A stretch of 51,631 nucleotides of DNA from a virus. Lineage: Duplodnaviria; Caudoviricetes. The stretch spans positions 1-51,631 of IMG/VR virus record IMGVR_UViG_3300030107_001538; one strand, written 5' to 3'. Shown here piece after piece: positions 23,680 through 43,663 of this stretch. How positions within the stretch are numbered: the stretch's first letter is position 1; every line of letters starts with the position of its first letter. The notes under the pieces are model-generated. The model was not told where the DNA came from. It saw only the letters and a program-made list of their open reading frames with translations, and searched no databases. The position numbers were made by a program, and so were the translations under genes.

Positions 23680-23913
23680 TTATTTAGAGTTCATAACTCT
23701 GGCATTTAGACATGCTTCAATATGATTATGAATCTCATCCATTTTTTGACTTGCTTCTCTTATCACAACCTTTAGAGTTTCATACTCTTCAAGGGTCATG
23801 AACTTCTGCAACTTTGTAATGTCCACCTTGCTACGTTCTGTAACAAGATTTCCACTTTTATCATATAATAATTTGTAAGCAAGTAATTGTGCTTCACTTC
23901 GTTTCGTCTTCAT
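23680..23913 (-). CDS. Hypothetical protein
   Basis: 77 aa, overlaps the end of RNR beta. Confidence 0.55.
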   Translation of the reverse strand: MKTKRSEAQLLAYKLLYDKSGNLVTERSKVDITKLQKFMTLEEYETLKVVIREASQKMDEIHNHIEACLNARVMNSK

Positions 23914-24886
23914 TGTTTAGTCCTGCAAAGGTCAATTGTCCGTAATCACCTCTAAGCCCTGCCTTTTGATATGAAGTAGCTCTGCCTTCAAAAAAGTTTT
24001 GATGCTCTACTCCTAACACATCATCAAGCCACGTCAACGGATTATCCTTTTGCTTGTAGTTTGGTTTTAATCCCAATTGTAATAGCCTTCTATCTGCAAT
24101 GTATTTATTGTAAGCATACATTTCTTCTTTAGTTAAACCTTCTAAGTTACCCATTTCAAATACTAAATCTAAAAACTTTTCTTCTAGTTTAACCATTTCT
24201 CTACATATCTGATAGATTTCTTTTTTAAAATCATCTGTCCAAATATCTAAATTCTCTTTTATAAATTCTCTAAATAACTTAGTCATTGCTTCAACATGTA
24301 AGCTTTCATCTTTAATAGAGTAAGCTACTATTTGACACATACCTTTCATCTTACCAAACCTTTGAAAGTTCATTAAGATTGCAAAGCTACTAAATAATTG
24401 TAACCCTTCGGTAAATGCTGAATAGACTGCTAGAGTTTTAGCAATAGTTCTCTTATCTGATTTAAGAGGTTTAAAGTTACCCACATAATCATGCTTGTCT
24501 GCCATTTCTTCATACTCAGCAAAAGCTTTATATTCTAATTCAGGCATACCTACTGTATCTAATAATAAACTGTAAGCATGTTGATGTATTGCTTCCATAT
24601 TAGCAAACGAAGACATCATCATTCTGGCTTCTGGTTTTTTAAAGATAGGCATATATTTATCTATATACCCCCCGGCAACATCTACATCTGACTGAGTGAA
24701 CAATCTAAAAATTTGGATTAATAAATTCTTTTCGTTCTCAGTTAATTTTTCATTCCAATCTTTAACATCAGTATGTAAAGGTACAGACATTGGATGCCAG
24801 TGCATTCTGTTCTGTAAGTCATAGTATTCAAACATCCATGCATAATCGAATGGTTTGTAATGTTCTCTGGTTGCTAGTAATGTCAT
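23894..24886 (-). CDS. nrdB: Ribonucleotide reductase class I, beta subunit
   Basis: SDVDV, EAIH..AY (radical Tyr), EGLQLFSSF, DESLH, NFFE. Confidence 0.93.
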   Translation of the reverse strand: MTLLATREHYKPFDYAWMFEYYDLQNRMHWHPMSVPLHTDVKDWNEKLTENEKNLLIQIFRLFTQSDVDVAGGYIDKYMPIFKKPEARMMMSSFANMEAIHQHAYSLLLDTVGMPELEYKAFAEYEEMADKHDYVGNFKPLKSDKRTIAKTLAVYSAFTEGLQLFSSFAILMNFQRFGKMKGMCQIVAYSIKDESLHVEAMTKLFREFIKENLDIWTDDFKKEIYQICREMVKLEEKFLDLVFEMGNLEGLTKEEMYAYNKYIADRRLLQLGLKPNYKQKDNPLTWLDDVLGVEHQNFFEGRATSYQKAGLRGDYGQLTFAGLNNEDETK

Positions 24887-25107
24887 TAAAATTTCTCCTT
24901 TAATATTCTTAATTTTTCATCAGCATTAGCGTACTGTTCCATAAGTTTATCCATTGATTCCACAACGTTAGGATGTTCTGCAACTCCTACTTTGTTTTGA
25001 AAATATATTTCTAGATTAGCTTTAGCTTCGGCTTTCTCAGCTTTGTATTTTGTTTCTAGAGCTTTATACAATAATGCTCCTGCATATTTAGTCATATTAT
25101 CCCTCAC
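24886..25107 (-). CDS. Hypothetical protein
   Basis: VGVAEHP motif, small helical protein between RNR subunits. Confidence 0.6.
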   Translation of the reverse strand: MRDNMTKYAGALLYKALETKYKAEKAEAKANLEIYFQNKVGVAEHPNVVESMDKLMEQYANADEKLRILKEKF

Positions 25108-26989
25108 AAGCTATACAGTCCACTTCGTCTAATTTAATTCGTGGAACTTTAATGTTTACATTCTCTGCTGCCTTGGCTGCATCAGACCTAAAATAGTACA
25201 GCGACTTTAATTTATTTGCACCATACCAATGTACATCACTTACATACTGCAAATACTCATCATGTTTTTCTTGGTCTTGAGCAGAGTCCGGTAAAATAAA
25301 AAATAAATTTACACTTTGACTTTGACATACAAACTCTTGTCTTTTGTATGCATGTTCTATTACCCACACTTGATTTATTTCATCTGCAGTTTTAAATAAT
25401 TCTTTTTCTTCTTTAGTAAATATTCTTATGTTCTGAATAGAACCTCTGTTATCACTAATTTGTTGCCAGAGTTTTTTTCGTTTGTTTGTTTCTGGAACTT
25501 TTTTATTAATTAATCTTTCTAAATTTTTATTTTTAACTTTGTAGCTACCGGATAAAGTTTTGTGCGTATAGACGTTAGCACGGTATGGCTCAATACTAGG
25601 GGAAGTACCACCACATATAATACTGCTACTGGCATTAGGAGCAATAGCCAGAAGATGAGAGTTACGAAAACCACTGCCATGTACATCAGGAGCTTCACCA
25701 CGTTCTTCAGCAAGTACTTTAGTAGCTTCAACAGCTTTGCTTTTAATGTGTTTGAAAGCTTTATAATTAAATCCTGTTGCAAAAATGCCTTCAAACGGAA
25801 TTTGATTTGATTGTAAATAGGCATGAAAACCCATCGCACCCAAACCAACGGAACGTTCTCTGTAAGCCGAGTAAGCAGCTTTTGTGAAGCCTTCTTTGCC
25901 TTCTTTAATATGTTTTTTAAATCTTTCATAGTTTGCATTGTAACCTCCTAGTGCATCCATGTTTACTGCATTCTCAATAAAATGCTCTAATACATTGTCA
26001 AGCATTCTAATTAAATCTGATATAAATTGTTTATCTTTAGACCAAATATCAAAATATTCTAGGTTTACACTAGACAAACAACAGACAGCAGTTCTCTCTT
26101 CATTGGTTGGTAGAGTAATCTCTGAACATAAATTACTTTGTTTAACTTCTAGTCCTAAATCTTTTTGTCCTTGTGGTAAAGCATCATTACAATTATCTAA
26201 ATTAATTATATAAGGTTCGCCAGTCTCTGCTCGAGCATCTAATATCTTGGACCACAACTCTCTAGCTTTTATAATCTTAACTGCTTCTTTAGTCTTCGGG
26301 TCTATTAATCGCCAATCATCATCTGTTTCCACAGCTTTTAAAAAAGCATTATTAATATTGATACCATTGTGTAGGTTTAAACATTTTCTATTTACATCCC
26401 CACCTGATTCTTTTCTCATTACCATAAACTCTTCAATCTCTGGATGACTAATATCAGTATAAGCAGCGTAGCTACCACGTCTAGTTACTCCCTGATTAAA
26501 AGCTAACATTTCTGAATCAACAACTTTCATAAAAGGTATTGAGCCAGTAGATTTACTACCACTGCTCGTTGCAGTTCCGTCACTTCTAACATCACCCCAG
26601 TACCCACCAATACCTCCCCCGGCACTTGCAAGTTTAGCATTTTCTTTAAAGTGGTCTGTTAGTTCATCAATAGAATCTCCTACGTAATTTAGAAAACAAC
26701 TGATAGGAAGACCTCTGGTTGTACCACCATTAGAAAGAATAGGAGTAGAAAACATAAACCACAAATCAGAGACATAGTTGTATAGTCTTTGAGCCATTGG
26801 ATAATTTGTTTCATCTTTATAAGTACTGGCAAAAACTGCAGCTCTCGCAAAAGCTTCTTGAGGTGAGGTTTCTTCTTGCCATAAATATCTGTCTCGTAAT
26901 GTATCTAAACTAAACTTATCTAACTTTTTATCTTTATCATAATTAATTATTATTCCTAAGTAGGGTTGCTCCCCTTTGTATTCCACCAT
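25097..26989 (-). CDS. nrdA: Ribonucleotide reductase class I, alpha subunit (no evident ATP cone)
   Basis: FSTPILSN, PISCFL, QSNLCSEI, AIAPNASSS, SLYY, C-terminal CIACEG. Confidence 0.93.
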   Translation of the reverse strand: MVEYKGEQPYLGIIINYDKDKKLDKFSLDTLRDRYLWQEETSPQEAFARAAVFASTYKDETNYPMAQRLYNYVSDLWFMFSTPILSNGGTTRGLPISCFLNYVGDSIDELTDHFKENAKLASAGGGIGGYWGDVRSDGTATSSGSKSTGSIPFMKVVDSEMLAFNQGVTRRGSYAAYTDISHPEIEEFMVMRKESGGDVNRKCLNLHNGININNAFLKAVETDDDWRLIDPKTKEAVKIIKARELWSKILDARAETGEPYIINLDNCNDALPQGQKDLGLEVKQSNLCSEITLPTNEERTAVCCLSSVNLEYFDIWSKDKQFISDLIRMLDNVLEHFIENAVNMDALGGYNANYERFKKHIKEGKEGFTKAAYSAYRERSVGLGAMGFHAYLQSNQIPFEGIFATGFNYKAFKHIKSKAVEATKVLAEERGEAPDVHGSGFRNSHLLAIAPNASSSIICGGTSPSIEPYRANVYTHKTLSGSYKVKNKNLERLINKKVPETNKRKKLWQQISDNRGSIQNIRIFTKEEKELFKTADEINQVWVIEHAYKRQEFVCQSQSVNLFFILPDSAQDQEKHDEYLQYVSDVHWYGANKLKSLYYFRSDAAKAAENVNIKVPRIKLDEVDCIACEG

Positions 26990-26990
26990 A

Positions 26991-27218
26991 TCATTTCCTG
27001 TCTAATGTTTTTAATAATTTTTTCTCGTACCATTCAGCTTTACGTAAATCCTCTATCCCATTCTTGTAACGAAATCGCCATCTATATTTTAAAGAATTAC
27101 CTCGTAAGTACCCAATAAATTCTTCGTCTGTTAGCATAGCTCGTATTGCATCAATACATTCTATATCGCCCTGATTATAATGGTCAGGGTTATTAACCAT
27201 GTCTGTCATTCTTTCCAT
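26991..27218 (-). CDS. DUF3310 / T7 gp1.7-like protein
   Basis: VNNPDHY..IECIDAI..GN.LKY.WR...KNGIEDLRKAEWY. Confidence 0.8.
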   Translation of the reverse strand: MERMTDMVNNPDHYNQGDIECIDAIRAMLTDEEFIGYLRGNSLKYRWRFRYKNGIEDLRKAEWYEKKLLKTLDRK

Positions 27219-27640
27219 TCCTCCGGTAAGGTAAGTTCATCAAACCATCTAAAATTATTTTTTTCTGCCCACTCAGCATGAGTTCTTTTAGTTTTATCTC
27301 TTCTTACTTTAGCTCCGGGCATAGGGGCAAAAGGTTTTTGAAAAAAGAAAACTAACTCAATGTGTTTGGGTAAAGCTTTTTTGATGTGTATATATTTACT
27401 ATACTCAGCAAAATCCCAGAATCTGCCTTTTGCTTCTATTAGTATAACACGACCATCATCAAACTTACGAACAAAGTCTGGTTCATAAGTATGAGCAATA
27501 ACATAATCAATGTTCTCCCAATGATGTCTCCATTCAGGAAACAGTCGTTGATGAATATCATATTCCCAATGACTATCGTAGCCTCTAGGAATGTGTAATT
27601 CTTTTTTAGGTCTACGTTTTCTTGGTCTTCTTCGAGGCAT
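27206..27640 (-). CDS. Endonuclease I-like resolvase (T7 gp3-like)
   Basis: YDSHWE, YEPDF, IEAKGRF, EWAEKNNF. Confidence 0.8.
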   Translation of the reverse strand: MPRRRPRKRRPKKELHIPRGYDSHWEYDIHQRLFPEWRHHWENIDYVIAHTYEPDFVRKFDDGRVILIEAKGRFWDFAEYSKYIHIKKALPKHIELVFFFQKPFAPMPGAKVRRDKTKRTHAEWAEKNNFRWFDELTLPEEWKE

Positions 27641-39139: not shown

Positions 39140-39461
39140 TGTGTTTTATCTCTTTAACTGTTTCAGTTAAGTGATGAAAAGAATAAGTACCATCACCATA
39201 AACATCATTATAAAACTTAGCTAATGTAAATAATTCTGGTAAAAGTTTTTTGCATAAGTTTAAGTTATTACAATCTAAAGGACTTACAGCTTTGAAGCAC
39301 ATATTAATAGCTTCTGCTATTACAGTAGCTCTAGTATCTGCCATGCCATTATCTATTAAGTACATAGCTATTAAACTATGCGTATTTCCTCTATCGACAT
39401 GATAATCATCATAATCTTCTAGTGGTTTGTATTGTTTATTTATAGTCATATTTATCTCCAT
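39132..39461 (-). CDS. Hypothetical protein (start possibly at second ATG, 39449)
   Basis: 109 aa; GGAG precedes the ATG at 39449. Confidence 0.55.
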   Translation of the reverse strand: MEINMTINKQYKPLEDYDDYHVDRGNTHSLIAMYLIDNGMADTRATVIAEAINMCFKAVSPLDCNNLNLCKKLLPELFTLAKFYNDVYGDGTYSFHHLTETVKEIKHND

Positions 39462-39497
39462 TTAGTTAATATTTGTTTGCCCTCTTGAGCTTTTAAA

Positions 39498-39537
39498 ATT
39501 TTGGCACGACCTCTTTTCGCCTGTCAAGTTTACAATA
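39498..39537 (-). promoter_or_regulatory. Early promoter, copy 2
   Basis: TATTGTAAAC-TTGACA-18 nt-CAAAAT with TGn. Confidence 0.55.
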
Positions 39538-39541
39538 TTGT

Positions 39542-39570
39542 ATTTCACATAATTGTCACATATTTGTCAC
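39542..39570 (+). promoter_or_regulatory. Pho-box-like 11-bp-period direct repeat
   Basis: ATTTCAC-ATAA-TTGTCAC-ATAT-TTGTCAC. Confidence 0.5.
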
Positions 39571-39581
39571 ACAATTATTTC

Positions 39582-39722
39582 AAAAGGTACATAAAAAAGG
39601 TACAAAGGTACAGAGTAAAAAAGGTACAAATAACTAACAGGTACAATAATTTAGCTGTACCTTTTTAGTTTTTGCCCTCAATAAATCGCCCGACTTCGCC
39701 CTCAATAAATCGCAAGAAGTCG
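39582..39722. repeat. Iteron-like cluster: five AGGTACA copies, one inverted copy and a 16-bp direct repeat
   Basis: aggtaca x5 in 39585-39645, tgtacct at ~39656; gccctcaataaatcgc at 39674 and 39698. Confidence 0.75.
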
Positions 39723-39786
39723 CTTTCCCAAAAGATTTATAATTACATTAAATCCTTACTAATAGTCTGGGTGGTCTACCACGACA

Positions 39787-39825
39787 TAAAAAAAACTCTA
39801 GAGAGCTTTTACACTCTCTAGAGTT
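39787..39825 (-). terminator. Intrinsic terminator after the two outermost early genes
   Basis: Perfect 12-bp stem aactctagagag/ctctctagagtt followed by a U-run on -. Confidence 0.85.
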
Positions 39826-39843
39826 CAGGAAAGTTAGGAGAGA

Positions 39844-40215
39844 TTAACTTTCACTAGATGGTTTAACATAAGAATTTTTACTCTTGAGAAAAGAGTTAAT
39901 AAAAGTCTTGTTAAACTTTCCTGAGATTGCATCTGAAATAAGTTTAGATACTTCATTCTTCATATACTTTTTACCATTTTGCGGTATGAAAGTATCAAAG
40001 AGATGCAATGTCCAAGTACCAGATAGCCCACCAAATCGTTTACGAAAGTTTAGATAATCATTTTCAATATCTAGATTATCATGTTTATCGGTAACCGATT
40101 TCAGCAATGCATCTCTATATAAACTCATTAGATAGTTGCATTGATTAACAGTCGCTGGACTATTAGCTTTTTCGATTATACTCTCATGAGTATTTTTTGT
40201 AGTTGCTTGGGTCAT
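39844..40215 (-). CDS. Hypothetical early protein (in the left arm of the fold-back)
   Basis: 123 aa, SD AGGAGG; PATVNQ..Y motif. Confidence 0.65.
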   Translation of the reverse strand: MTQATTKNTHESIIEKANSPATVNQCNYLMSLYRDALLKSVTDKHDNLDIENDYLNFRKRFGGLSGTWTLHLFDTFIPQNGKKYMKNEVSKLISDAISGKFNKTFINSFLKSKNSYVKPSSES

Positions 40216-40815
40216 AATATGCCTCCTAGACAGATTTATTTAAATTTATAATGTACATTTCCAAGCGGGAATACACATCATCCTTTTTTCCAGAATACTT
40301 GAAACCAAGTATCCTAAAACCTTTTGCAATATATTGTTTAGCAACTTCTAGAGCTGTAGAGACATTAGTTGTTCTAACAGTATCTTGATTGCTAAATGTT
40401 ATATCTATTATCATAATCTACCTCCTTTGATAATACTATGAGGTTACCATCGGACTTTATGCATACAAGGGTTGCTTTAGCAACTTGCGAAGCCCTTGTA
40501 GGTAAATAAAGGACTATGGTGCTCTCTTATAGTATTCAAAGGAGTAAGTAGATATGGGAATAGCATATACTAGATTTAGCAATACTGTTAGAACACTTCT
40601 TGAAAGCTCTAAGAAATTGCTAAACTTGCAGAGGTACTTGGTAAGTATTCTGAAGTGATGTGTATAGTTGGGAATAAACTAGGAGGAGACCCAAGCACTA
40701 CAAAGTTGAGATATATAGTTAGGGCTAGGGTGGTCTAATTATTTGGTAGCAAGTTTAGACTTGAAAATCCTTTAAACTTTGTAAACTAGATAACTGGCTA
40801 CTAGAACTTGCCAAG
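40010..40815 (+). repeat. Long imperfect inverted repeat (fold-back) centred at ~40482
   Basis: More than 12 nested complementary blocks, e.g. 40371-40383/40582-40594, 40291-40300/40643-40652, 40271-40280/40656-40665, 40196-40213/40688-40704. Confidence 0.85.
40226..40414 (-). CDS. Hypothetical early protein (in the left arm of the fold-back)
   Basis: 62 aa, SD AAGGAGG. Confidence 0.6.
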   Translation of the reverse strand: MIIDITFSNQDTVRTTNVSTALEVAKQYIAKGFRILGFKYSGKKDDVYSRLEMYIINLNKSV

Positions 40816-41113
40816 TCTTGGGTGTGTTTTGTAGAAAAGGTACAGCTCTTGCAAGTCTGAGAAGTCTGCAGAGTTCTGCTGAGAGCTGTTTAGACTTGGC
40901 AGTTCTAGGGGGAGGCAGGAGACCACCCCACCCCACCTATATATCTATAGCATACTCATACAAAATTACAGAAACCGGGCATTAACCAGTTAGGCTTATC
41001 TGGTTTACAAATAAACCCCGAACCCGATGGATTCTTTTAACTTACTTGGGAGTTTTTGGGAGGGTTGGTTTGGGCTACATCTACTATGGTAGACCCGGGG
41101 GGGCACTAAAGTT

Positions 41114-41142
41114 ATTATAGCTTCTAAATTCTATTTTGTCAA
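41114..41142 (-). promoter_or_regulatory. Perfect consensus sigma70 promoter (leftward)
   Basis: TTGACA (41142-41137)-17 nt-TATAAT (41119-41114). Confidence 0.85.
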
Positions 41143-41147
41143 GAGGG

Positions 41148-41176
41148 TTGACAAGTTTATTTTTCGACTGTATACT
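41148..41176 (+). promoter_or_regulatory. Sigma70 promoter (rightward), likely giving leaderless terS mRNA
   Basis: TTGACA-17 nt-TATACT; ATG follows 7 nt later with no SD. Confidence 0.8.
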
Positions 41177-41183
41177 AAGTAAC

Positions 41184-41618
41184 ATGGCAATACTTCCGAG
41201 TGTAACAAACGATAACAAAAGACAATTAACCGAAAAGCAGCAATCTTTTTTGAACCACCTAGTTGAAACCCAAGGAGATGCTAAAAAGGCTGCTGAGTTA
41301 GCTGGATATACCAGTCATTATCATCATGTGGTAAAGACTTTAAAGAATGAAATCCTTGAATTAACTCAAGAGGTCTTGGCAAACTCTGCACCCAAAGCAG
41401 CTTTTAAGTTAGTTGAGATTATGGAGTCTAATCGACCTATAGTTCAAGCTAACAATAAGTTGGCTGCAGCTCAAACTCTCTTAGATAGAGTAGGAGTAAG
41501 CAAAGTAGATAAGCTAGATGTAAATCATAACGTGAGCAATGGTATCTTTTTAATGCCCGATAAAGCTCCAATTAATTTAGACAAGGAAGATTATGAAGAT
41601 ATTTCTGACGGAAATTGA
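41184..41618 (+). CDS. Terminase small subunit (putative)
   Basis: LTEKQQSFL..GDAKKAAELAGY HTH; AAQTLLDRVG; start revised from TTG 41136 to ATG 41184. Confidence 0.7.
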   Translation: MAILPSVTNDNKRQLTEKQQSFLNHLVETQGDAKKAAELAGYTSHYHHVVKTLKNEILELTQEVLANSAPKAAFKLVEIMESNRPIVQANNKLAAAQTLLDRVGVSKVDKLDVNHNVSNGIFLMPDKAPINLDKEDYEDISDGN

Positions 41619-41793
41619 AAAAGAAGGTAGAAGATATGCAGGTCCTAATATACTTGCCGAGACTTGGGAGTTAGCTCAAGAGGCTGCTCAGTTTAATAAT
41701 TTGATATTAGTTGGCGAATTTGTGGAAATAATTGCAGATGGCGATTCAATGCACTATTTAGAAAAGCATACAAAACCAAAGACTTTACATTAA
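41593..41793 (+). CDS. Hypothetical protein
   Basis: 66 aa, YAGPNI motif. Confidence 0.55.
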   Translation: MKIFLTEIEKEGRRYAGPNILAETWELAQEAAQFNNLILVGEFVEIIADGDSMHYLEKHTKPKTLH

Positions 41794-42242
41794 TGGCATA
41801 TTCTAGACAAGTAGTAGATAGGTTTGAAAGTGTTTTAAATAACCCGGACAAACATGCAGTCGGTAGGTTTGACCCTAACGACCCTAATGTGGCTACCGGT
41901 TTAACCGGAGCACCTGCTTGTGGCGATGTTATGAAGTTGCAATTAAAGTTAGCTGGTGATATTATCGAAGATGTAAAGTTTAAAACTTATGGTTGTGGTT
42001 CGGCAATAGCTTCTAGCACTATGTTTGTTGATATGTTAAAAGGTAAAACTATTACCGAAGCTAAACAAATAAAAGATGCAGATATAGCTAAAGCTCTAGA
42101 TTTACCTCCAATAAAACTACACTGTAGTGTTTTAGCCGAAGAAAGTATTACCAAAGCAATAGCAAATTGGGAAGCAAAAGTAAAACATAGACAACATAAT
42201 CAATATGGCAGCAAAGAAGAAAAAGAAAAGTACAGTAAATAA
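41793..42242 (+). CDS. iscU: Fe-S cluster scaffold IscU/NifU-N (auxiliary metabolic gene)
   Basis: GAPACGDVMKLQ, FKTYGCGSAIASS, LPPIKLHCS; all three Cys and the chaperone-binding LPPVK-like motif present. Confidence 0.93.
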   Translation: MAYSRQVVDRFESVLNNPDKHAVGRFDPNDPNVATGLTGAPACGDVMKLQLKLAGDIIEDVKFKTYGCGSAIASSTMFVDMLKGKTITEAKQIKDADIAKALDLPPIKLHCSVLAEESITKAIANWEAKVKHRQHNQYGSKEEKEKYSK

Positions 42243-43498: not shown

Positions 43499-43611
43499 AT
43501 CGTTCAGCTCGTAAGAGCCGGAAGTAGATTAGAAAAGAAAACCTCCCTAGTAATAGGGGTAAGCTAAGTACTAGCAATAGGAACAGAGACCGACATCTAT
43601 CGAAGGAACGC
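43499..43611 (+). ncRNA. glnA-motif (class I glutamine riboswitch)-like RNA with expanded P3
   Basis: ATCGTTCA, P2 GCTC-GTAA-GAGC, CGGAAGTAG, closing CGAAGGAACGC; P1 CGTTC/GAACG. Confidence 0.8.
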
Positions 43612-43663
43612 AATGGGTGATGTACGAAAGTACATTTAATTTAATTGCAAACTGGAGATTAAT

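What the first reader, a model, noticed from the sequence alone, without database searches (positions are those of the whole stretch)
40010..40815. ~0.8 kb imperfect fold-back pairing the two outermost early genes with a non-coding mirror arm
Seen: nested complementary blocks around ~40482. Examples are ctcctttga 40422-30/tcaaaggag 40536-44, attgctaaat 40388-97/40574-83, gttctaacagtat 40371-83/40582-94, gtttagcaacttct 40336-49/40612-25, cagaatactt 40291-300/40643-52, atacacatca 40271-80/40656-65, cctcctag 40222-29/40679-86, 40196-213/40688-704 and 40038-67/40761-86. It may extend weakly to ~39900/40900. The right arm is shorter, so the coding arm loops out between 8-17 nt helices. Most of the mismatches I checked are G.T on the + strand (e.g. 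tagcttt/agggcta, ttccaa/ttggga, cttttgcaa/ttgcagagg), which favours folding of the + strand. That strand is the template for the two genes, which form their own terminated unit. Inference: pairing is under selection rather than a decaying duplication. It could act as an ssDNA structure at the genome end during injection, replication or packaging, analogous to plasmid Frpo ssDNA promoters or the T7 concatemer hairpin. Alternatively it could be an antisense leader masking both Shine-Dalgarno sites.
Basis: partly seen in the sequence, partly recalled or inferred. Interest (0 to 1): 0.88.

Follow-up and report, generated by a model that had tools for sequence, protein, structure and literature searches.

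The report
Phage gene cassette with mirror hairpin
A marine phage carries two small early genes next to a non-coding mirror image of them; related phages keep a full 1.2-kb version of this hairpin intact through matched mutations, which points to an unknown function of one single strand.

Summary
The fold-back is real. The core, 40196-40482 against 40483-40704, lies 20-33 sd above shuffles. The outer part over the second gene is weak.

The window is an uncultured HMO-2011-type pelagiphage. Its fold-back is a shortened copy of a family-wide module: two minus-strand early genes (g1 about 60 aa, g2 about 90 aa) plus a mirror arm with no conserved ORF. Together they form a 1.1-1.3 kb interrupted hairpin. 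It occurs in 30 of 60 terminase-linked relatives and in 71 of 71 loci with a canonical g2 and enough flank.

The arms co-evolve. 491 of 573 columns carry two or more Watson-Crick pair types. RNAalifold finds 110 of 388 pairs changed on both sides.

Mismatches favour G.T on the terminase-sense (+) strand, 443 against 155 A.C. That strand folds better. Substitution directions are balanced. Perfect helices stay at 23 bp or less.

So neutral decay is rejected for the family, and selection acts on a single-stranded + strand. Whether that strand is RNA or ssDNA, and what it does, is not shown. I favour a cassette-linked antisense rod-like RNA (0.4).

The parts
40483..40704 (.). Mirror (right) arm, core. 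It is a non-coding inverted copy of g1, of both Shine-Dalgarno sites and of the first ~20 nt of g2.
   Evidence: z 20-33 against shuffles. Stops in all three + frames, and the g2 start codon is lost. The longest ORF in 40483-40900 is 34 aa.
40196..40482 (.). Left arm, core: g1, the g1-g2 junction and the left half of the apex.
40226..40414 (-). g1, 62 aa. First gene of the leftward unit, no known family.
   Evidence: ORF. Homologues sit in the fold-back loci. No Pfam or PHROG family. The codon-position pattern in relatives indicates purifying selection.
39844..40215 (-). g2 of the window, 123 aa. A non-canonical type, only 19% identical to the ~90-aa g2 of the full modules, and mostly unpaired.
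40465..40498 (.). Apex hairpin of the fold-back.
   Evidence: 91% conserved in L009 and L023. In the X2 strain 40472-40492 is replaced by 58 other letters.
40038..40067 (.). Outlying block paired with 40761-40786. This is the only supported pairing inside the g2 body.
   Evidence: 24 of 30 matches. z 4.6 strict, 2.9 lenient.
40761..40786 (.). Partner of 40038-40067. It contains the recurrent TTGTAAAC motif.
39793..39826 (-). Intrinsic terminator that ends the g1-g2 unit.
   Evidence: 14-pair stem plus a T run. An equivalent hairpin is conserved at the left end of the relatives' fold-backs.
39768..39777 (.). Left copy of the outer closing repeat (GGGTGGTCT), complementary to 40920-40928. The pair differs in sequence but stays complementary in L059, L076, L071 and L078.
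40901..41183 (.). Conserved non-coding block. It holds back-to-back consensus promoters (minus strand 41142-41114, 12 of 12; plus strand 41148-41176, 11 of 12) and a conserved ~220-nt minus-strand leader that runs into the mirror arm.
39543..39718 (.). Repeat arrays left of the cassette: TGTCACA x2-3, AAAGGTACA x5 plus one inverted copy, and a 24-nt direct repeat x2.
   Evidence: Equivalent arrays occur in relatives.

Best explanation
The window's fold-back is a shortened member of a module found in uncultured HMO-2011-type pelagiphages. The module is a two-gene early cassette on the minus strand (g1, g2) plus a mirror copy of itself with no conserved ORF. Together they form a 1.1-1.3 kb hairpin of short helices (23 bp or less) broken by mismatches and bulges.

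Shown:
- The arms co-evolve.
- The tolerated mismatches are those that still pair on the terminase-sense (+) strand, which is antisense to the genes.
- The module is tied to the cassette and not to the phage backbone.

Inferred:
- Selection acts on a single-stranded form of the + strand.
- This form is most likely a rightward antisense transcript that starts in the repeat-array region left of the cassette and folds on itself into a rod-like RNA. The mirror arm then supplies, in cis, a partner for the antisense arm.
- G.U pairs on this RNA are C.A mismatches on the g1-g2 mRNA. They keep the rod stable while loosening the same hairpin in the mRNA, so the genes remain translatable.
- What the rod does is not shown. 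It may control or time g1-g2, avoid perfect sense-antisense duplexes, or serve as an RNA partner of the two proteins.

In the window the module is eroded: only g1 and the gene starts are still mirrored.
For: Family-wide presence:
- 30 of 60 TerS-linked loci with at least 1500 nt upstream have the fold-back.
- 71 of 71 loci with a canonical g2 and at least 1300 nt of flank have it.

Co-evolution:
- Fold-backs of different lineages are only 40-55% identical to each other. Within each lineage the arms are 79-90% identical.
- L059 vs L076: 254 left-arm differences, 159 compensated to Watson-Crick pairs.
- 491 of 573 columns carry at least 2 Watson-Crick types.
- RNAalifold on 9 sequences: 388 pairs, 110 changed on both sides.
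- My controls on the long-range pairs: 98 pairs changed on both sides, against 21-26 with slid partners and a mean of 47.6 (max 60) in 200 shuffles.

Strand:
- G.T 443 against A.C 155 on the + strand. G.T exceeds A.C in 18 of 21 lineages.
- The + strand has the lower MFE in 18 of 20 relatives, by up to 212 kcal/mol. Its excess over shuffles is larger in 5 of 5 tested.
- Alifold: -318 for + against -176 for -.

Not a mutation bias:
- Polarised right-arm substitutions are balanced: C>T plus A>G 65, G>A plus T>C 63.
- Four-fold sites follow gene orientation, not the absolute strand.

No long conversion tracts:
- The longest perfect helix is 10-23 bp. It falls in the lower 5% tail of permutations in 9 of 21 lineages and never in the upper tail.

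Other points:
- The X2 strain differs from the window at three right-arm sites that I paired by hand from the sequence: C.A to C.G, G.C to G.T and T.G to T.A.
- Relatives of the L016 type carry a +-strand two-gene unit with +-strand terminators in the same slot, just after the same kind of repeat array. So rightward transcription from that region is plausible.
Against: - No +-strand promoter was found left of the cassette, in the window or consistently in relatives.
- No RNA data bear on the region.
- A consensus minus-strand promoter reads into the mirror arm. A minus-strand hairpin RNA should therefore exist too, and it also folds strongly.
- In the window, the energy excess over shuffles is about equal on both strands.
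- 3 of 21 lineages (L049, L055, L058) show no G.T excess.
- The lineages are related, so counts are not independent events.
- Pair maps come from my own alignments.
- G.T and G-containing mismatches are also the most stable mismatches in DNA (recalled), so ssDNA is not excluded.
- Among near-identical pairs, new G.T and A.C changes number 9 and 6. These are too few to decide (counted by hand without repeats).
Confidence: 0.4

Rival explanations
1. The same strand-specific hairpin forms in single-stranded + strand DNA. One setting is the lagging-strand template of a fork leaving an origin in the iteron-like arrays just left of the cassette. Another is a displaced strand. It would then act like a plasmid single-strand origin or ssi/Frpo element. 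The + strand is the template of g1-g2, so the mirror arm could stand in for the missing complementary strand.
For: - +-strand-specific mismatch tolerance.
- G-rich mismatches (G.T, G.A, G.G total 917 against 353 C-containing) fit DNA mismatch stabilities as well (stabilities recalled).
- Repeat arrays, GCCCTCAA repeats and an AT-rich stretch flank the cassette in the window and in all 6 relatives whose flank I printed.
- The cumulative GC skew has its minimum near 40 kb.
- The phage has T7-type replication genes.
Against: - A core replication or packaging element should not be absent from 30 of 60 close relatives and from the isolate HTVC115P.
- The GC skew equally follows gene orientation.
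- Known ssDNA signals are 0.1-0.3 kb and non-coding (recalled).
- No sigma-70-like promoter was seen in the paired apex region.
- In the G.T-rich lineages the ratio of G.T to A.T pairs (about 0.18) is close to the G/A ratio at four-fold sites. That is what near-neutral RNA wobble predicts, and it is more than I would expect for a DNA mismatch (my inference).
Confidence: 0.25
2. The functional molecule is the minus-strand early transcript. The strong promoter in the conserved block transcribes the leader, then the mirror arm, then g1-g2. The leader therefore pairs with the coding region, masks both Shine-Dalgarno sites, and at its outer end competes with the terminator stem (attenuation or antitermination). 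This resembles a leader-borne antisense RNA.
For: - A consensus minus-strand promoter (12 of 12) lies upstream of the mirror arm in the window, L076 and L016 (11 of 12 in L059). Its ~220-nt leader is conserved.
- Both Shine-Dalgarno sites are mirrored.
- In clade A the mirror copy of the terminator keeps only the half that pairs with the real terminator's 3' half.
- The minus strand still folds to -390 to -506 kcal/mol with 300-400 long-range pairs.
Against: - Wobble pairs on the minus strand (A.C on +) are the rarest transition state, 155 against 443. They are typically 2-14 per lineage, below the transversion mismatches. This is the opposite of what pairing selection on that strand predicts.
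- Alifold energy is -176 against -318.
- Terminator-like hairpins lie in the leader at 41034-41020 and 40991-40973 and may stop many transcripts.
- The same promoter and leader exist in relatives whose cassette genes face the other way.
Confidence: 0.15
3. There is no function. An inverted duplication of the cassette is kept similar by gene conversion or template switching between the arms, and the copy in the window is simply decaying.
For: - The right arm reads as a pseudogene copy: a g1-like frame with stops, and the g2 start deleted.
- The right arm evolves faster than the left. L059/L050: left arms 93% identical, right arms 82%.
- In that pair, double changes cluster in places.
- The window's arm is shortened.
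Against: - No long perfect tracts: the longest helix is 10-23 bp, at or below random expectation.
- Conversion does not explain the strand-biased mismatch spectrum when substitution directions are balanced.
- A useless ~600-nt arm persists in 71 of 71 canonical cassettes of a streamlined phage group, across lineages whose arms have diverged to 40-55% identity.
- The right arm changes no faster than the mostly coding flanks.
Confidence: 0.12
4. Assembly artefact or chimera at an inverted repeat.
For: Many IMG/VR contigs of this group end within or near the region.
Against: - The arms are imperfect.
- Unique flanks lie on both sides in contigs of 50 kb.
- The X2 run from another study and year holds both arms at about 99%.
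- More than 70 independent contigs show the same architecture.
Confidence: 0.01

Closest known systems
Single-strand origins and ssDNA promoters of plasmids and filamentous phages (sso of rolling-circle plasmids, M13 minus-strand origin, F Frpo, ssi signals). Recalled, not read here.
   Same: - Imperfect hairpins that work on one strand only.
- Structure is kept while sequence drifts.
- They lie beside replication or leading-region functions.
   Different: - Those elements are 0.1-0.3 kb and non-coding, and they act on a known ssDNA intermediate.
- Here the hairpin is 1.1-1.3 kb and one arm is two genes.
- The phage is a T7-type dsDNA replicator, and half of the relatives do without the hairpin.
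Rod-like RNAs with a coding arm: hepatitis delta virus (recalled) and Obelisks (passages of PMC11922315 read; abstract of PMC10827157 in the listing).
   Same: - A unit of about 1-1.7 kb folds into an interrupted rod.
- One arm carries the ORFs on the strand complementary to the better-folding one.
- The other arm is a mirror with no conserved ORF.
   Different: - Those are circular RNA replicons without a DNA copy.
- This is a DNA segment inside a 51.6-kb phage genome.
- No ribozyme was found and no Pfam family for g1 or g2.
- No RNA evidence exists.
Leader-borne antisense RNAs and anti-Shine-Dalgarno leaders, such as c4 of phages P1/P7 acting on icd-ant in the same transcript. Recalled.
   Same: An antisense element lies upstream of its target, on the same strand, behind one promoter. 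The ribosome-binding sites are among the paired parts.
   Different: Those elements pair over tens of nucleotides and are optimised on the mRNA strand. Here the pairing covers the whole two-gene unit, and the wobble pattern favours the opposite strand.
Integron attC sites. Recalled.
   Same: Imperfect palindromes whose fold in one DNA strand is conserved rather than their sequence. They are attached to gene cassettes that occupy a variable slot.
   Different: attC sites are 57-141 nt, lie beside the gene and do not mirror it, and need an integrase. No recombinase is seen here.
Hairpin end formed at T7 concatemer junctions during packaging.
   Same: A T7-type replication module, and a location next to the terminase genes and to a conserved non-coding block.
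   Different: A packaging intermediate should be universal in the group, but the fold-back is cassette-linked. The termini are unknown.

Membership tests
ssDNA hairpin origins/promoters (sso, ssi, Frpo, M13 minus-strand origin) | Imperfect hairpin that functions in one strand only | tested here: met
   G.T 443 against A.C 155 on the + strand. Alifold -318 against -176.
ssDNA hairpin origins/promoters (sso, ssi, Frpo, M13 minus-strand origin) | Short (0.1-0.3 kb) non-coding element | tested here: not met
   The span is 1.1-1.3 kb and one arm encodes g1 and g2.
ssDNA hairpin origins/promoters (sso, ssi, Frpo, M13 minus-strand origin) | The hairpin rebuilds a -35/-10 promoter recognised by RNA polymerase | tested here: inconclusive
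   Consensus scans list no strong site in the paired apex region. Only 9-of-12 matches occur, at 40385-40417 (+) and at 5114-5085 (-) in L059.
ssDNA hairpin origins/promoters (sso, ssi, Frpo, M13 minus-strand origin) | A single-stranded DNA stage of the replicon | not testable with these tools
   Only T7-type replication genes were seen. The replication mode and fork direction are unknown.
T7-type concatemer-junction hairpin | Core packaging element present in all members, next to the terminal repeat | tested here: not met
   Absent from 30 of 60 relatives and from HTVC115P. The termini are not known.
Leader-borne antisense / anti-Shine-Dalgarno leader | Antisense element and target on one transcript | tested here: inconclusive
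   A consensus minus-strand promoter lies upstream of the mirror arm. However, terminator-like hairpins lie in the leader, and no transcript data exist.
Leader-borne antisense / anti-Shine-Dalgarno leader | Pairing maintained on the mRNA strand (wobble tolerated there) | tested here: not met
   Wobble on the mRNA strand is the rarer class, 155 against 443. The minus strand is the weaker fold.
Rod-like RNA replicons (HDV, viroids, Obelisks) | Rod-like fold over the whole unit, with ORFs on one arm | tested here: met
   ORFs
Rod-like RNA replicons (HDV, viroids, Obelisks) | RNA-only circular replicon, with self-cleaving ribozymes or Oblin proteins | tested here: not met
   The unit is DNA inside phage contigs and in a DNA run. 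No Rfam family was found in 5 loci or in the window. No Pfam family was found for g1 or g2.
Neutrally decaying inverted duplication (pseudogene copy) | The arms diverge independently after duplication | tested here: not met
   Compensated changes. The arms are 79-90% alike within a lineage, while lineages are 40-55% alike.
Invertible segment or transposable element with terminal inverted repeats | A recombinase or transposase, and occurrence in other contexts | tested here: not met
   Only two small ORFs of no known family lie inside. No copy occurs in GenBank phages or in 185,579 species genomes. I did not check the wider context of all 75 loci.

The most novel reading that the evidence does not exclude
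The cassette is a DNA-encoded rod-like RNA element. Its main product would be the ~1.2-kb interrupted-duplex RNA of the terminase-sense strand. The two small proteins encoded on the complementary strand of one arm would be its partners. This is the architecture of hepatitis delta virus and Obelisks, but carried and exchanged as a module in the early region of abundant SAR11 phages. It could be a captured or domesticated viroid-like agent, or the DNA-borne counterpart of such agents.
Probability: 0.1. Interest if true: 0.95.

Novelty: new variant of a known kind. Interest (0 to 1): 0.8.

Why it matters
HMO-2011-type phages of SAR11 are among the most abundant viruses in the sea. Their early regions are unannotated "dark matter".

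This report describes a kilobase-scale hairpin with four properties. One arm is a pair of genes. The other arm is held complementary by compensated changes across dozens of diverged lineages. Its wobble pattern singles out the strand antisense to the genes. Its perfect helices are capped near 20 bp.

I found no description of such a structure in the papers searched. It adds a large structured nucleic-acid element to dsDNA phage biology.

It also gives a clean comparative system of more than 70 natural variants for asking how a coding sequence and a pairing partner co-evolve.

Finally, it gives a concrete target for stranded metatranscriptomics and dsRNA sequencing of seawater. If the molecule is RNA, it links DNA phages to the rod-like RNA world. 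If it is ssDNA, it extends strand-specific hairpin signals to T7-type phages.

Tried and rejected
RNA evidence. One search for runs and one laying of X19, X20, X17 and X2. All runs are Logan contigs. The RNA runs covered only 39300-39450 (X19) and 41374-41700 (X17), and X20 laid nothing. These contigs cannot show strand, start or level, so they say nothing about transcription of the fold-back.

Known RNA families. Rfam at gathering score on the window and on 5 loci, and at E of 1 or less on 39400-41250. The only hits were the glutamine riboswitch elsewhere and two chance matches far below threshold.

Gene function.
- Pfam and PHROGs gave nothing significant for g1 or g2 of the window, L005, L059 and L076.
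- The AlphaFold model of g2 (pLDDT 80.7, five helices) has no PDB match at E of 0.001 or less.
- The best ESM Atlas score was 0.77, a lead only.
- 91 homologues were found, all unnamed or "hypothetical".
- No g2 match in GenBank phage records or in species genomes.
- blastn of the region against GenBank phages found no match.

A +-strand promoter left of the cassette. Consensus scans and my own hexamer scan gave scattered 9-12 of 12 hits, with no conserved position.

Mutation-bias explanation of the G.T excess. Rejected on balanced polarised substitutions (noisy, with many transversions that suggest alignment error) and on four-fold-site composition.

Long-tract gene conversion. Rejected on helix-length permutations.

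Synonymous constraint. The left arm shows fewer synonymous differences than TerS in 3 of 4 close pairs, but not in distant pairs. Mosaic ancestry could explain this as well, so I did not use it as evidence.

Technical failures.
- A blastn self-search for inverted repeats missed the palindromic hits because of my filter. It was replaced by local alignment.
- One search stopped with a division error after 8 pair rows. Only those rows are used.

Not done. I did not use complex prediction. Supplementary files of the papers were not seen and may hold genome-end or promoter data for the isolates.
Full report
What the window is.
The window is a whole IMG/VR virus record of 51,631 bp that CheckV rates as complete. 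Its large terminase is 66% identical to that of Pelagibacter phage HTVC115P and about 48% identical to that of HMO-2011 and its roseophage relatives. Genes run rightward from the small terminase (41184) through the structural module to 23567. They run leftward from 40414 to 23894. The leftward set includes family-A DNA polymerase, T7-type primase-helicase, endonuclease I and ribonucleotide reductase. The finding lies in the divergent region between these two modules.

The observation.
- All nine listed blocks are complementary: six perfectly, the others 13 of 14, 17 of 18 and 24 of 30.
- The arms align with a score of 257, against 115 +/- 10 in 300 shuffles. The best same-sized pair elsewhere in the window scores 161.
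- The core (40196-40482 against 40483-40704) is 20-33 sd above shuffles. The outer part over the second gene depends on one block.
- The left arm holds two minus-strand genes, g1 (62 aa) and g2 (123 aa). Both have strong ribosome-binding sites, and a terminator follows at 39826-39793.
- The right arm reads as a broken copy. It has a g1-like frame with stops, and the g2 start has been deleted.
- Both strands fold far better than shuffles, and in the window the excess is about equal on the two strands.
- DNA contigs from another study hold the same arms.

Relatives.
The small terminase finds 210 relatives in IMG/VR, of which 80 were fetched. Sixty of these have at least 1500 nt upstream. Thirty of the 60 have a much stronger fold-back at the same place, spanning 1.1-1.3 kb with 430-580 aligned pairs. 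The other 30 have none or only a stub. The isolate HTVC115P has none.

In the three loci whose ORFs I listed, the left arm is two minus-strand genes of about 60 and 90 aa (L005, L076, L059). Across 20 lineages the longest right-arm ORF varies from 19 to 90 aa and switches strand. I therefore infer that the right arm is non-coding.

A search with the g2 family returned 75 loci. All 71 with at least 1300 nt on the g1 side have the fold-back. Many of these are the same contigs as in the terminase set, or near-duplicates.

The window's g2 is only 19% identical to the canonical g2. Loci with that longer g2 type have a partial fold-back (L009, L023, L054, L068) or none (L031, L038). The window is therefore an eroded member of the family.

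Co-evolution of the arms.
- Fold-backs of different lineages are 40-55% identical, which is near the floor for aligned DNA. Within each lineage the arms are 79-90% identical.
- I threaded each lineage's own pairing onto an alignment of the coding arms. Most left-arm differences turn out to be matched by a change in the partner. In L059 vs L076, 159 of 254 differences are compensated. In L071 vs L063, 59 of 87 are.
- 491 of 573 columns carry two or more Watson-Crick pair types.
- RNAalifold on nine sequences predicts the giant hairpin, with 388 pairs of which 110 changed on both sides.
- On the 320 long-range pairs, 98 changed on both sides. Slid-partner controls give 21-26, and shuffles give a mean of 47.6 with a maximum of 60.
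- Neutral decay of an old duplication cannot give this pattern.

Which strand.
- On the terminase-sense (+) strand, mismatches are G.T 443 times and A.C 155 times. G.T exceeds A.C in 18 of 21 lineages, reaching 63 to 6 in L090.
- G-containing mismatches outnumber C-containing ones, 917 to 353.
- The + strand has the lower folding energy in 18 of 20 relatives. Its excess over its own shuffles is larger in 5 of 5 tested, for example -327 against -189 kcal/mol in L059.
- Its consensus fold is much better, -318 against -176.
- On the pairs predicted from either strand, G.U cells number 61 on + and 15 on -.
- The most nearly perfect hairpins (L089, L093) have few transition mismatches of either kind, 4:3 and 3:4. 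This fits G.T accumulating where it is tolerated.
- A strand-biased mutation process is not supported. Polarised substitutions in the right arm are balanced at 65 against 63. Four-fold sites follow gene orientation.

Conversion or selection.
Long-tract gene conversion should leave long perfect stretches. Instead the longest perfect helix is 10-23 bp in every lineage. It falls in the lower 5% tail of permutations in 9 of 21 lineages and never in the upper tail. The interruptions are therefore spaced more evenly than chance. This fits selection against long perfect duplex. The agents such a duplex would expose it to (double-strand-specific nucleases, recombination, cruciform cutting by the phage's own endonuclease I) are my inference.

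Context.
- The block 40901-41183 is conserved in nearly all relatives and in HTVC115P.
- It holds back-to-back consensus promoters. The minus-strand one (41142-41114, 12 of 12) reads through a conserved ~220-nt leader into the mirror arm.
- The end of that leader is complementary to a box just beyond the cassette's terminator. The two boxes change together between lineages.
- Repeat arrays and an AT-rich stretch lie left of the cassette.
- In L016-type relatives the same slot is bounded by a perfect 20-nt inverted repeat. It holds a different two-gene unit on the + strand, directly behind the arrays, with its own +-strand terminators.
- The slot is thus a variable early cassette site, and rightward transcription from its left border occurs in at least some relatives.

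How it most likely works.
- Shown: a cassette-linked hairpin under selection for pairing on the + strand.
- Inferred: because half of the relatives lack it and every canonical cassette has it, its job concerns the cassette and not general replication or packaging.
- The + strand is antisense to g1-g2. I think the likeliest molecule is a rightward transcript that folds into a rod-like RNA (0.4).
- Each G.U on that RNA is a C.A mismatch on the mRNA. The wobble pattern therefore keeps the rod stable while weakening the same hairpin in the mRNA.
- The ssDNA version (0.25) shares the strand evidence but fits the cassette linkage less well.
- The mRNA-leader version (0.15) fits the promoter geometry but not the mismatch spectrum.
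- A functionless, conversion-maintained duplication (0.12) fits the pseudogene look of the arm but not the strand bias, the short helices or the arm's persistence.

Comparison with known systems.
The module works like strand-specific hairpin signals (sso, ssi, Frpo, attC) and looks like the rod of hepatitis delta virus or Obelisks. It fails a defining feature of each of these (see the membership rows). I found no mention of it in the following places:
- the HMO-2011 literature, by search and term look-up;
- two wider searches;
- a pelagiphage transcriptome paper, which concerns other phages.

Limits.
- There are no transcript, terminus or origin data.
- Pair maps rest on my own alignments.
- The lineages are related, so counts are not independent events.
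- Knowledge of the comparison systems is recalled, except for the Obelisk passages read.

Noticed in passing
window 43499-43614 (+); L076 6910-7025: A glutamine riboswitch aptamer (RF01739, 49.4 bits in the window and 51.3 bits in L076) lies inside the phage's rightward module, a few genes after the small terminase.
   Followed up: no
window 40901-41183: A conserved non-coding block with back-to-back consensus sigma-70 promoters. It carries a ~220-nt minus-strand leader kept in nearly all relatives and in HTVC115P. The leader has a CCCCCCGGG box, an AACTAG/CTGGTT hairpin, and a G-rich end (GGTGGTCTCCTGCC). Terminator-like hairpins at 41034-41020 and 40991-40973 suggest a small early RNA.
   Followed up: partly
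window 39543-39718: Iteron-like arrays: TGTCACA repeats, AAAGGTACA x5 plus one inverted copy (46 matches in the window against 22 expected at one mismatch), and two 24-nt direct repeats (GCCCTCAATAAATCGC). An AT-rich stretch follows. The same layout with other repeat sequences occurs in relatives. This could be an origin or an operator region.
   Followed up: partly
window 39653-39665 / 40835-40847; L010, L011, L016, L022, L024, L029, L030: A perfect 13-nt inverted repeat brackets the cassette in the window. Relatives without the fold-back have a perfect 20-nt inverted repeat 1.2-1.3 kb apart. In L016 it brackets a different two-gene cassette on the opposite strand.
   Followed up: partly
window 40803-40906: A local hairpin with a ~16-bp stem (AGAACTTGCCAAGTCT / AGACTTGGCAGTTCT, one bulge) and a loop of about 70 nt. 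It lies between the mirror arm and the conserved block.
   Followed up: no
window 40472-40492: In a DNA run from another study the apex of the fold-back is replaced by 58 other letters, while both arms are kept.
   Followed up: no
window 41793-42242 (+); 23894-26989 (-); 27206-27640 (-): A NifU/IscU-like gene (E 1.7e-37) lies just after the small terminase. Both ribonucleotide reductase subunits are present. So is a T7-type endonuclease I, which would cut extruded cruciforms.
   Followed up: no
L007, L012, L013, L020, L028, L034, L036, L040, L053, L056, L061, L065, L066, L072, L075: Many IMG/VR contigs of this phage group begin 110-900 nt upstream of the small terminase, inside or beside the variable cassette. 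One 51-kb contig (L075/L151) has both of its ends in the fold-back. These are probably assembly breaks at the inverted repeat and not genome ends.
   Followed up: no
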